The notes under the pieces were generated by a model that saw only the letters and a list, made by a program, of their open reading frames with translations, was not told the DNA's origin and did no database searches. DNA of 64,000 nt from assembly GCF_036588685.1 (NCBI RefSeq), contig NC_086376.1, positions 58,218,001 through 58,282,000 on the forward strand. The letters are read 5' to 3'. The stretch comes from Mytilus trossulus (lineage: Eukaryota). Below, in pieces: positions 351 through 6,300 of the stretch. Each line of letters begins with the position of its first letter. The stretch's first letter is position 1. Both the position numbers and the translations under genes were made by a program.

Positions 351-3300
351 GTACGTTACCAATGAATACAAAAAACGTTTTTAAACAATTTAACTATATA
401 TCTAACAATACAATATACGATATCACTTAAATGAAATAGTAAGGAATTTATCTTTAAAAAATGCTGTTAGTCGATATTATTGCAGGGAAAAAACGTTCTT
501 TAATTTGTTCATTACCATTGTCGACTTCGCCGACTTCATTGACGCCGACGGGGGTACTTATAACTTTATGAGTTGTGGCTGAACAGATGTGATGGTATAT
601 ATGTTTGCGTTGATTGCCACAGTTTTAACATCAACAATGTTTTTGTAATTGATTGCTGTATGAATGTTATTTGTGATCTGTTGAATAGATGTGTCATTTG
701 CAAAAATAATCCTTATTCATTTTAATTAAAAAAAAAAAAGAACTAGTTAGGAAAGAATCCATGTTTGTATCGTTCTGTATTACAATATTAAATGATCGTG
801 TAGCTTTGAAAATTAGTTCATTCGAAGGACAATTCATAAAAAAGTGATTGCATCTTTATTGGGGACTTATAATAATAAACATTATCGTGCACACTAGTAT
901 TTCTACACATCATTTAAGCAGACAAATGTAATTTGCATGTTGTTAAAATCGTTTGGTTTATAAAACTCAATAAAGGAAATGTCAACACAACTAATCTTAA
1001 AATATTTTGATAAGTAAGAAAGAAGCAACGGACTTATGCAATGTAAAGAATTTGTTCATAGGAAGTCTTAACAGTCAACGGTTGACCACCTAAATGAAGA
1101 TAGAATTGAGAAAGGAAATGGGAAATGTGTCAAAGAGACAACAACCTGACCAAAGAGCAGACAACAGCCGAAGGCGACCAATGGTCTTCAATGCAGCGAG
1201 CAAACGATTCACTATATTACTTTCAAATCCAAAATATATCAAAATGTATCTTGTAAGCTATTCTTGATATTCAATTCAATTAATGTTGCATTACTCCATC
1301 ATTATACTCGTTCCCACTTATATATGACAGGAGTTCTAAAACATTTCGTATGTCGTTATGTTGCTAGACCTAGTTTTTCCTGCTTGATATCCTTTGTAAA
1401 GATAAAAAGTGTAAAGCGATCTTGCAGAGTATATAACCAATAAACCAAACATACCTTCAAACGATTCCAATACATCACTTATATGCATACACTTTGATTA
1501 ATAAAATTGCAATATATTAAAAGATAACATTAAATTACAGTGTGCTTTATTTTTCAGACAACTGCGCATGCAATTCGCAAAATAAAGCTTCATCTTGTTC
1601 GGTAAATTCATGTTTATATGATGGCACATGCGCAGTAGTGGATGATTCATTTTTCTGTCTGTGTCCGGCTGGTTACAAGGGACGGCTATGCGAAGGTTTA
1701 TATATTTATTTGTTAGCAGGGTTTCCCCGGGGTCAATTATTATTTTCGCCACCTCTTTCGCCAAAACAATATATTTTTCGCCACTTTATAATTATTTTCG
1801 CCAAGTAACACAAATATATATATTTTTTTTAATTTTCCTTTTTTTCCAGCCCCCCCCCCCCCCCCCCTAAATAAGAAGAGTTTTTTTATAACAAAACGAA
1901 GCATCTTATCACTTGGAATTGATCCCTCGTGTAAGGTTTAGTCATTACATTTAAGGCTTGCTCTCATGCCAACCTTTTGAATAGATTTCTTCATAACGAG
2001 TTTTCTTTTCTAGACCATTGTAAAAAGGTAAAACTATATGCTTGAAACACGTGTGTCACTGAAACAACTTTGAAATACCCACTCAAATCAAAGATCTAAA
2101 TGAAAGTTAAATGATAAAGTTTTAAATCAGAGACCTTTCTTGCTTTTGAACATTTTTCGTCATAACAACAATTTTCTTTTCTGGACTTTCATTAAAAGAA
2201 GGAGAGGAAGCTTAAAAATTTTGCTTCAAACACGTGCGTTGCAAAGTGGTTAATAAAATCCTTATTGTGACATGTGACAAAAGCCATTTAACCCTATCAT
2301 TTTGTCATATCATACAATCTCAACACCTTTATTAATTAGTTCTTTGATGTCGATAGCTATGAATGCAATCAGCTGATTATTGATTTTCTGTCAAAATCTT
2401 AACGAGTTCAAGGTGAATTCCGAGTATTTTTGGTCGGTAAAGTCAGAGAAACCCGAAAAAAGTAAATAAACAAGATGGGTGAAAATAAATCGTTATATAT
2501 ATTTCTTTCGCCAAATTCTTTTGCCAATTACGAATTTTAATCGCCAAAATTATTATTTTTTTCGCCAGCGGACACCCTGTTTGTTAGATATCACATGCTC
2601 GGTTGCTTGAAATTTTTACTATCAGTATAAACGTGACATATTTTGACAGTAAATCTCTAGGATTTTTTGTTATTAAATGTTTAACATCGGAATTTGTTTT
2701 TTTTTTAATTATTTAGTTGTCCGCGAAATTGTAAGGCTCTCCTTTTAGTAAAAGCATAAACGGTAAACAATTTATTGCATTTTGACCATAAATGTTTCTT
2801 CAGTGATGAGCCAAAATATTTGCTAATTTGAAAAATCAACACAAACATTAAAAGAACATAAATATAGCAAATCGTGATAAGAAAATTGAGAATGGAAATG
2901 GGGAATGTGTCAAAGAGACAACAACCCGACCAATTAAAAAAACAACAGTAGAAGGTCACCAACAGGTCTTCAATGTAGCGAGAAATTCCCGCACCCGGAG
3001 GCGTCCTTCAGCTGGCCCCTAAACAAATACATACTAGTTCAGTGATAATGAACGCCACAATAATTTCCAAATTGTACACAAGAAACTAACATTAAATAAT
3101 ACAAGACTAACAAAGGCCAGAGGCTCCTGACTTGGGACAGGCGCAAAAATTGCGGCGGGGTTAAACATGTTTGTGAGATCTCAACCCTCCCCCTATTCCT
3201 CTAATCAATGTAGAAAAGTAAACGCATAACAATACGCACATTAAAATTCAGTTCGAAAGAAGTCCGAGTCTGATTTCAGAAGATGTAACCAAAGAAAATA

Positions 3301-6300
3301 AACAAAATGACAATAATACATAAATAACAACAGACTACTAGCAGTTAACTGACATGCCAGCTCCAGACTTCAATTAAACTGACTGAAAGATTATGATTTC
3401 ATCATATGAACATCAGGCACAATCCTTCCCGTTAGGGAATCATTATATAGATATAAGAAGACGTGGAATGAGTGCCAAAGAGACAACTCTCAATCCAAAT
3501 CACACATTTGTAAAAGAAAGCTTTTTAGGTCTAAGTACAGTCATCAACACGGAGCAAAAAGTTTGCATGTTGAAGCTATTTCCGGAATTTAGAAAAGATT
3601 TACCAAACCGTAGTACTGTCAACTGGGTTTGTAATACTCCCTGAGATTTACAGTCCATCCGCAGGGGTATTGATCAAGCGGTAGTAATAAACAATGCAAC
3701 AGTGGTACATGTATCCGCTGTTCAATAGTCACCACTCAATTAAGCGAAAACAAATCCAAGTCACAAATAATAAACTATAACCCCAAAAAAAACCTATAAA
3801 ACTGCAGAAACACTGAATTGCTACGTAAACAAACATACAAAGCATCGGACTATAACGAAACTATTGTTACTGCAAAAGATAACTATTTCGATTAATGTTA
3901 GTTCAAAAATGCTCAAAGCCAATTATTTGAACATCCACATCCTGATACAAACGTCAAAATCTGTTTCTGATGATCAAAACAAAACAAAACTGTAACCCCA
4001 AATAAAACAATCAGACCTAACACAGCATTTAGAAGTTTTAGTATAGTAGGGAATTCGAAATAATATTATAGTTTTAGAAAAATGTTAGTTAAATACATAG
4101 AAGGATTAAAATGATTAATAAAATTAATGTATAGCTATACATATAAATTGAATAAAACTTATAAATAAATAGTTTATTCCATTGTTAAAACGAATCGATG
4201 TCACAAGATGATAAACGAACTATTTTTCCAGTCACGCCATGTTCCAACACACCTGCTTATTTAATGGTACCTGTACAGTAACAGGGGAATCATACGTCTG
4301 TGTTTGCCCTGATGGATTCAGTGGACAGCAATGTGAAGGTCAGTATGTCAGTGCTTAAAATTTAATATCACTTAACTGTATACGAAAGAGACGGATTCAA
4401 ATTAATTGAACATTTTAAATAGAATTTTTACAGCTTTGCACATTTCTTCTGCAATAAGGAATTTAACTTTTACTTATAATTACAGCATGACCATACATTG
4501 TCTAAATAAATAAATGTTATTTGTTCAAGACATAGAAACAGGTGGAAAGTGATGCTTTCTCGAGTTTTTCTATCCTGTTTTGGCAAATAACAGTTATATT
4601 CGAGTCTGTGTATGCTATTCTTTCTATACTGTAACTCATAGAATTGTTCCAAAAGACATATTTTAGTTAATGACCTCCGATGGGCAGATGTTAGTTAATG
4701 ACCTCATAACCACAACTCTACGAAAACGCCTTGTCATCCTCATAATCAATACGCTATACGGACAGTGACTGTATATGATCTTCAACTTGGTAGTTGTTAT
4801 GGCTTTCAAACTTATAACATCTGGGCATAGTGTTATTACCCACCATTTTTTCATAAAATGCCCTGTACCAAGTCAGGAAAATGGCCATTGTTACATTATA
4901 GTTCGTTTCTTTGTGTGTTACGTTTCGATGTTGTGTCTCTGTTGTGTCGTAGTTCTCTTATATTTGATGCGTTTCCCTCAGTTTTAGTTTGTAATTCGGA
5001 TTTGTTTTTTTCTCTATCAATTTATGAATTTTGAACAGCAGTATACTACTGTTGCCTTTATATACCACAATTAATAACTAAACCCCTAACAGGAAGGATT
5101 GTGACTGATATTCATATGATGAAATCATAATCTTTCAATCAGTTTAATTGAAGTTTGGAGCTGGCATGTCAGTTAACTGCTAGTAGTCTGTTGTTATTTA
5201 TGTATAATTGTCATTTTGTTTATTTTCTTTGGTTACATCTTCTGACATCAGACTCGGAATTCTCTTGAGTTGAATTTTAAATGTACGTATTGTTATGCGT
5301 TTACTTTTCTACATTGGCTAGAGGTATAGGTGGAGGGTTGAGATCTCATAAACATGTTCAACCCCGCCGCATTTTTGCGCCTGTCCCAAGTCAGGAGCCT
5401 CTGGTCTTTGTTAGTATTGTATTATTCTAATTTTAGTTTCTTGTGTACAATTTGGAAATTAGTATGGCGTTCATTATTACTGAACTAGTATATATTTGTT
5501 TATGGGCCAGCTGAAAGACGCCTCCGGGTGCGGGAATTTCTCGTTACATTGAAGACCTGTTGGTGACCTTCTGCTGTTGTTTTTTCTATGGTCGCGTTGT
5601 TGTCTCTTTGATACATTCCCCATTTCCATTCTTAATTTGATTGATTAAGTCAGAGTGGAGAAATCTCGTTTTTTTAAACAATGAGTAAAACAAGATTCTG
5701 AACAAATCACTATATATAAATGAATACATATTGCACGTTATAGTATACTGTTTGTTAAATGTTTTTCAGACACCCCATGTACCAAAGGACCCTGTATGTA
5801 TAATGGAAGCTGCCAAGTTACAGTGGAATCGTATGATTGCGTTTGCCGTGACGGTTACACTGGAATACGGTGTGAAGGTAAATAAGTTATTGCTGACAGA
5901 GCATAATTACCATGATTACGAGTTACTATTATCAAATTATAAGCCTTGTGTCTTGGATGACAATTTATCAACTATATTGTGTCTTAATCAGTAAAAGTCA
6001 AAATAAATCTGTATATTGTTAGGAAGAGATGGGATAATGTGAGATTTGGGAGGGTATTTATATCAAATGCACATATATTATGCTATTGAATGTAACTGTA
6101 GTGTTTGGTCTATATTGTATGTAGTTCCAATAATGATTTGATTTTGTATATTTCTTAGTGTTCTTGTGTTTATCTGGACTGTATTTCTGTCACGTAAGGT
6201 TCTCTTTACCATTTCTATACAACCAGGTTCAACTCACCATTTGTTATTTAAAATGTCCTGTACCATGTCAGGAATACGGCAGTTGTTATCAAACAGTATG

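What the first reader, a model, noticed from the sequence alone, without database searches (positions are those of the whole stretch)
2882..5638. Frameshifted EGF exon bracketed by ~555-bp inverted repeats: possible repeat-driven exon loop-out
Seen: of the seven EGF modules in the window only 4232-4338 is 107 nt (1-bp deletion, stop at 4279). It is also the one enclosed by a head-to-head pair of long, very similar repeats (2882-3437 + and 5083-5638 -). All EGF exons are phase 1-1, so skipping keeps the frame. Established: intronic inverted repeats promote exon skipping, back-splicing and A-to-I editing. Inference: pairing of the repeats removed the exon from the mRNA and let it decay, or rescues the gene, changing the stalk from 5 to 4 EGFs.
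Basis: partly seen in the sequence, partly recalled or inferred. Interest (0 to 1): 0.7.

Follow-up and report, generated by a model that had tools for sequence, protein, structure and literature searches.

The report
Retrotransposon tails flank mussel EGF exon
Two mirror-image tails of a very common jumping gene flank one exon of a mussel-type lectin-like gene, but other animals carry that exon intact, so the one-base deletion is likely a private defect or an assembly error rather than decay caused by the repeats, and any exon skipping is untested.

Summary
Exon 4232-4338 is 107 nt with a stop at 4279. It lies between two 93%-identical inverted repeats 1,646 nt apart, and skipping it leaves a 408-codon frame. 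The repeats are 5'-truncated 3' tails of a Naiad-type (Penelope-like) retrotransposon with at least 6,295 copies. They belong to different subfamilies, so they inserted independently. The decay story fails its main test: 3 of 3 public DNA runs shown at the site (three studies) have an extra C, so a 108-nt exon. A fourth run carries one extra base in a contig spanning the exon. The exon has no other lesion and ordinary splice sites. The 107-nt state is so far private to this assembly: a rare null allele or a CCC/CC error. The tight bracket is uncommon (0 of 163 other EGF exons), and its geometry resembles the TBXT Alu pair, so partial skipping remains possible. No RNA covering this gene was available. 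The scan found this family's SECIS, and similar inverted-repeat brackets, before on other DNA. Verdict: mostly ordinary.

The parts
215..350 (+). Gene A exon 1 (ATG at 215; hydrophobic stretch, likely a type II signal anchor)
   Evidence: 136 nt, phase 1; anchor judged by eye from the translation
1558..1695 (+). Gene A exon 2, EGF1 (138 nt)
   Evidence: (PF00008, 3e-06)
2882..3437 (-). Naiad copy 1: 3' UTR tail, element 3' end at 2882, 5'-truncated inside the SECIS-like hairpin
4232..4338 (+). Gene A exon 3, EGF2: 107 nt in this assembly (CC at 4252-4253, TAA at 4279), 108 nt in other animals
5077..5638 (+). Naiad copy 2: 3' UTR tail of another subfamily, element 3' end at 5638
5770..5877 (+). 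Gene A exon 4, EGF3
6981..7088 (+). Gene A exon 5, EGF4
8027..8134 (+). Gene A exon 6, EGF5
9666..9793 (+). Gene A exon 7, fibrinogen C domain part 1
   Evidence: (PF00147)
10722..10818 (+). Gene A exon 8, fibrinogen C domain part 2
12642..12806 (+). Gene A exon 9, fibrinogen C domain part 3
13209..13781 (-). Naiad copy 3 (older, 85%); inverted relative to copy 2, so the two bracket the intact exons 4-9
14716..14954 (+). Gene A exon 10, fibrinogen C domain part 4 with stop

Best explanation
Two separately inserted, truncated tails of an abundant Naiad-type retrotransposon flank EGF exon 3, which is 108 nt in the other animals examined, so the one-base deletion is likely a private null allele or an assembly error, and its position between the repeats is likely chance. 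Shown: the repeats are 3' UTR fragments of two subfamilies; the exon is intact in other animals; the rest of gene A is an open frame. Inferred: the usual product is a membrane-anchored protein with five EGF domains and a fibrinogen C domain. In this haplotype, if the deletion is real, exon inclusion would give a stop at codon 108 and probably nonsense-mediated decay. The two tails are predicted to pair in the pre-mRNA and may cause some skipping as a side effect, but nothing shows that this came before or permitted the deletion. Between real allele and error I put roughly 60:40.
For:: a C is put in behind 4251 at full depth in X1 (34.8 of 34.8), X2 (5.49 of 5.49) and X6 (7.34 of 7.34); X3 has no cover there. 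That is 3 of 4 runs laid, 3 of 3 covering, from three studies; the X4 contig has 585 letters over 584 window bases (4223-4806) with one gap, place not shown. X1 and X2 contigs run 25 and 30 letters into the outer end of copy 2 with no loose part; copies 1 and 2 share none of their differences from the majority of 38 other copies; 11 of copy 2's 27 differences are shared by 18-19 of those copies. Distant copies are closer to each (96-97%) than the two are to each other (93%); exon 3 donor at the 49th and acceptor at the 15th percentile of 144 control EGF exons, like exons 5 and 6 (10th, 11th); three damaged EGF exons elsewhere have no tight bracket; 3 inverted pairs (200 nt or more, 85% or more, within 5 kb) in 770 kb of other DNA; two close inverted pairs of this family confirmed at L169 and L170.
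Against: The tight bracket is rare: 1 of 164 EGF exons, and that one is the broken exon. The spacing (1,646 nt) is close to the TBXT pair (1,448 bp, PMC10901737). Copy 1 was not shown in the animals with the intact exon, so the pair could be private to this haplotype. The overlaps into copy 2 are under the tool's 31-letter bridge rule. The runs may be of sister species, and the X6 contig differs at 24 of 260 letters. The acceptor is on the weak side, the class most prone to loop-out in PMC13019027. X1 carries a Gly-to-Arg change at 4314 in a conserved position of this exon.
Confidence: 0.72

Rival explanations
1. Loop-out first, decay second: the newer insertion completed an inverted pair, the pre-mRNA stem skips exon 3 in frame, and the freed exon then lost a base in this haplotype; the gene survives with four EGF domains.
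For: TBXT-like geometry; predicted duplex of -891 kcal/mol; in-frame skip product; bracket in 0 of 163 other EGF exons; copy 1 not shown in animals with the intact exon.
Against: Exon 108 nt in 3 of 3 covering runs; one lesion only; splice sites ordinary; any two 93% inverted copies would fold this way; coincidence odds inside the window are only 1 in 7.
Confidence: 0.1
2. The pair is old and shared and causes partial skipping of an intact exon 3 in many animals (5-EGF and 4-EGF isoforms); the deletion is incidental, but such skipping would rescue part of the output of this allele.
For: Copy 2's end is present with an intact exon in X1 and X2; TBXT precedent (PMC10901737); weak-side acceptor.
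Against: No direct support was obtained. The human enrichment in PMC13019027 is statistical, and that study also lists 232,493 Alu pairs (both orientations) around constitutive exons.
Confidence: 0.13
3. One complex Penelope-type insertion or a local inversion made both arms, perhaps carrying the exon with it.
For: The arms end within 7 nt of each other in the element (562 and 569) and their truncated 5' ends face each other, the geometry of inverted 5'-truncated copies described for Naiads (PMC8557442).
Against: The arms belong to different subfamilies with no shared private change. Exon 3 and exon 6 regions are 77% alike, so the exon duplication is much older than the 3-5% diverged copies.
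Confidence: 0.05

Closest known systems
TBXT AluSx1-AluY loop-out skipping (PMC10901737, passages read)
   Same: Two independently inserted retroelement copies in opposite orientation in the introns on either side of one exon, several hundred nt from the splice sites, about 1.5 kb apart; skipping would be in frame.
   Different: In TBXT the skipped isoform was seen and lost on deleting either Alu. Here no transcript was seen, the repeats are Naiad tails, and the exon is frameshifted in one assembly only.
Genome-wide inverted Alu pairs around skippable exons (PMC13019027, abstract, outline and passages read)
   Same: An abundant repeat forms inverted pairs around exons; weak acceptors are most affected.
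   Different: Human and statistical; this family is far sparser than Alu (about 1 exact motif per 206 kb).
Naiad clade of Penelope-like elements, including selenoprotein Naiads of clams and spiders (PMC8557442, passages read)
   Same: Endonuclease-like region before the reverse transcriptase, heavy 5' truncation, abundant 3' ends, in-frame UGA codons and a SECIS-like hairpin behind the stop.
   Different: The passages I read name clams and spiders for the selenoprotein form. The window copies are UTR-only and cut inside the SECIS-like hairpin.
Molluscan fibrinogen-related domain (FReD) proteins
   Same: Four exons cover Pfam Fibrinogen_C positions 2-220; the best library hits to the last exon are 33-55% identical.
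   Different: Likely type II anchor plus a tandem EGF stalk; none of the 150 listed hits is an orthologue.

Membership tests
Inverted-repeat loop-out exon skipping (TBXT type) | Inverted repeat pair in the two introns flanking the exon | tested here: met
   93%, 1,646 nt apart
Inverted-repeat loop-out exon skipping (TBXT type) | Arms can form a long duplex | tested here: met
   528 of 556 nt paired; a prediction only
Inverted-repeat loop-out exon skipping (TBXT type) | Exon-skipped transcript exists | not testable with these tools
   No RNA run holding the gene was served
Inverted-repeat loop-out exon skipping (TBXT type) | Skipping depends on both repeats | not testable with these tools
   Needs minigene deletions or genotype-matched RNA
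Inverted-repeat loop-out exon skipping (TBXT type) | Weak 3' acceptor (predisposing) | tested here: inconclusive
   15th percentile, no weaker than exons 5 and 6
Decayed exon freed by skipping | Lesion shared by animals, or several lesions and eroded splice sites | tested here: not met
   108 nt in 3 of 3 covering runs; sites ordinary
Naiad (Penelope-like element) | Penelope-type reverse transcriptase with no C-terminal endonuclease | tested here: inconclusive
   Long ORF with a YLDD motif that ends just before the UTR; the type is recognised from recalled motifs; Pfam gave no RT hit
Naiad (Penelope-like element) | N-terminal GIY-YIG endonuclease with an upstream Zn-finger-like motif | tested here: inconclusive
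   IIY...YVG motif and upstream Cys/UGA cluster at the ORF start in 4 of 4 loci examined; Pfam gave 0 families
Naiad (Penelope-like element) | Fixed 3' end, variable 5' truncation | tested here: met
Naiad (Penelope-like element) | No canonical hammerhead ribozyme | tested here: inconclusive
   Rfam found none in 4 loci that cover only the 3' 1-2 kb
Selenoprotein Naiad | In-frame UGA at conserved positions plus SECIS behind the stop | tested here: met
   Four UGA at the same places in 4 of 4 loci; SECIS_1 at 32.3-33.5 bits in 4 of 4 loci, just under the gathering score of 35
EGF-FReD protein | EGF domains followed by Fibrinogen_C | tested here: met
   PF00008 above cut-off in 5 of 5 gene A EGF exons; PF00147 in 4 of 4 FReD exons

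The most novel reading that the evidence does not exclude
Exon loss caught in the act. A recent, still polymorphic Naiad insertion completed an inverted pair on this haplotype, loops out a frame-preserving EGF exon and shelters a frameshift. Naiad tails would then act in mussels as Alus do in apes, tuning the stalk length of modular immune receptors between individuals.
Probability: 0.1. Interest if true: 0.62.

Novelty: new member of a known kind. Interest (0 to 1): 0.22.

Why it matters
If skipping were shown, it would extend repeat-pair loop-out from primate Alus to Penelope-like elements in a mollusc and give a route by which EGF number changes between haplotypes. One search for 'Penelope-like' + 'exon skipping' + 'bivalve' found 0 papers. 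As the evidence stands, the main lesson is caution: a single-base frameshift in one assembly of a highly polymorphic animal should be checked against other individuals before it is read as evolutionary decay. The locus remains a cheap RT-PCR test case.

Tried and rejected
RNA test: the two RNA runs laid (X19, X21; 2 of 6 listed, all with word shares of 0.06-0.07) have zero depth in the bins over exons 2, 3 and 4 and cover only repeats. They say nothing about skipping, back-splicing, editing or expression. Copy 1 in other animals: no listed contig crosses either of its junctions, and the tables were cut. None of the five DNA runs laid (X1-X4, X6; 5 of 18 listed) looks like the assembled animal, so error versus allele stays open. 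Orthologue proteins: two word searches found nothing and the representative search gave no orthologue, so EGF number in relatives could not be read from proteins. A second haplotype or paralogue of the exon 3 region in the own genome: none found. A genome-wide truncation hot spot at the SECIS: rejected (0 of 19 unselected copies end at 555-590; motif counts 3,545 inside and 4,629 beyond the break). A single insertion event: rejected by subfamily sites. Pfam did not recognise the RT or endonuclease. Selenocysteine read-through of the exon 3 stop: the stop is TAA, so no. Earlier notes near this place or in look-alike stretches: none. No supplements were read.

Full report
Observation. The window reads as mussel-type DNA: a 1.30-Gb genome in 541 contigs with about 14 chromosome-size ones, with mollusc metagenome runs among the holders. 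The name 'mussel' is my inference and that of earlier notes; no call names the organism. Gene A has ten exons from 215 to 14954: a hydrophobic first exon, five EGF exons and four fibrinogen C exons. Exon 3 (4232-4338) is 107 nt; with it the frame stops at codon 108 (TAA 4279), without it the frame is open for 408 codons. Gene B (45719-55153) is an intact 339-codon paralogue with two 108-nt EGF exons. The repeats are 93.0% identical over 558 columns and 1,646 nt apart.

What the repeats are. A search with copy 1 gave 3,107 candidates, and the best 39 other copies are 95-97% identical to it. A search with copy 2 gave 5,775 candidates, best 94-96%. One 16-mer of the repeat occurs 6,295 times exactly. 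Copies share one fixed end and are cut at variable points at the other. Long copies lead into a reverse-transcriptase ORF with a YLDD motif. At its start lies an IIY...YVG endonuclease-like motif, and four in-frame UGA codons sit at the same places in 4 of 4 loci examined. A SECIS-like hairpin follows the stop (Rfam 32.3-33.5 bits, gathering score 35). This fits the Naiad clade of Penelope-like elements (PMC8557442, passages), though Pfam recognised neither domain. The two arms are therefore UTR-only tails whose truncated 5' ends face the exon. They share none of their differences from the majority of 38 other copies, and 11 of copy 2's 27 differences are shared by 18-19 of those copies. They are two insertions, not one event.

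Is the frameshift general? Public DNA contigs laid on 3440-9800 show a C put in behind 4251 at full depth in X1, X2 and X6; X3 does not cover the place. That is 3 of 3 covering runs from three studies. In one search the X4 contig spanning 4223-4806 has one more letter than the window and one gap, whose place is not listed. The exon is thus normally 108 nt, and the assembly has CC where they have CCC. None of these runs looks like the assembled animal: all runs shown covering 5866 and 5904, for example, differ from the window. The assembled haplotype is distinct, so a private deletion is plausible; a homopolymer error is too (a second C run at 3995 is also one shorter than in X1 and X6). X1 and X2 contigs continue 25 and 30 letters into the outer end of copy 2 with nothing loose, so copy 2 very likely coexists with an intact exon. 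This is below the tool's 31-letter bridge rule. Copy 1 was not shown either way.

Signs of decay. Apart from the missing base, exon 3 aligns without gaps to its sister exons and its downstream frame still passes the Pfam EGF cut-off. With matrices from 144 control EGF exons its donor ranks at the 49th percentile and its acceptor at the 15th, against the 10th and 11th for exons 5 and 6. X1 has a Gly-to-Arg change at 4314, but amino-acid differences between animals also occur in exons 2, 4 and 7 (1620, 5866, 9668; codon effects read by me from the sequence).

Chance. Of 172 EGF motifs in 464 kb (window included; the search needs an intact 3' half), 164 had 1.5 kb of flank on both sides. Only exon 3 is bracketed by an inverted pair of 100 nt or more at 80% or more. 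Against: 16 motifs failed my six-cysteine pattern; 11 are an intact variant type, one has a Cys-to-Tyr change, one is exon 3, and three are damaged (a stop, a frameshift, an apparent deletion). None of the three has a tight bracket. Close inverted pairs are not rare genome-wide: about 30 within 2 kb are expected for this family alone, two were confirmed at L169 and L170, and 770 kb of other DNA held 3 pairs of any kind. Within the window the coincidence is 1 in 7. Copies 2 and 3 also form an inverted pair (85%, predicted -734 kcal/mol) around exons 4-9, which are intact.

Mechanism. Most likely the gene makes a five-EGF fibrinogen-domain membrane protein, and this assembly carries either a rare null allele or an error. 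The two tails are predicted to pair (528 of 556 nt), and the spacing is close to the TBXT pair (1,448 bp; PMC10901737, passages). Some skipping is therefore possible, mainly for exons with weak acceptors (PMC13019027, abstract, outline and passages). It is untested. Two in-frame AG sites inside the exon (starts 4279 and 4285) would also bypass the frameshift, so skipping is not the only possible rescue.

Novelty. Inverted retroelement pairs around exons are a known kind. Selenoprotein Naiads are published for clams and spiders, and the scan noted them before in this genome. A search for 'Penelope-like', 'exon skipping' and 'bivalve' together gave 0 papers; papers listed and 59 other than the three named were seen as listings only. 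The open, more interesting case, a haplotype-private pair sheltering a frameshift, is not excluded because copy 1 was not genotyped and no RNA was available. I give it about 10%.

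Noticed in passing
window 3437, 5077, 13781: All three long Naiad tails in gene A are cut within 20 nt of each other (element positions 562, 569, 582), inside the SECIS-like hairpin. No genome-wide hot spot was found (0 of 19 unselected copies end at 555-590). Unexplained.
   Followed up: partly
L163, L164, L167, L168; L014:2021-2085: The parent family looks young and selenoprotein-encoding: four in-frame UGA codons, a SECIS-like hairpin, and 149 other matches at 96-99% to the endonuclease region among the 150 scored.
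   Followed up: partly
window 14546-14716 and 19931-20958: Gene A's last exon is preceded by short tandem partial copies of its start, two with AG acceptors, and has a broken duplicate at 19931 that is interrupted by another Penelope-like RT fragment (about 20090-20900).
   Followed up: no
window 1558-1695 versus 47368-47391 and 48087-48194: Gene A exon 2 (138 nt) appears to combine what gene B has as a 24-nt mini-exon plus a 108-nt EGF exon: a possible intron loss or gain.
   Followed up: no
window 4277-4284: Two AG dinucleotides inside exon 3 give in-frame alternative acceptors (428- and 426-codon frames) that bypass the frameshift.
   Followed up: partly
window 4314: Run X1 carries G>A, changing the conserved Gly of the C-x-x-G-F motif in exon 3 to Arg.
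   Followed up: no
window 1725-2580: Multi-copy element (high depth) with inverted ends seen by eye, in intron 2 just behind exon 2; MITE-like.
   Followed up: no
window 62130-64000: Peptidoglycan-recognition-type gene (Pfam Amidase_2, 1.6e-17) downstream of gene B.
   Followed up: no
window 10181-10461 and 29284-30505: A 36-nt tandem array in intron 7, and a mixed tandem and inverted repeat between the two genes.
   Followed up: no
L106 and L107 (C11 12.32 and 12.41 Mb), L090: Other damaged EGF exons in the same genome (a stop, a frameshift with lost acceptor, an apparent deletion), none tightly bracketed.
   Followed up: partly
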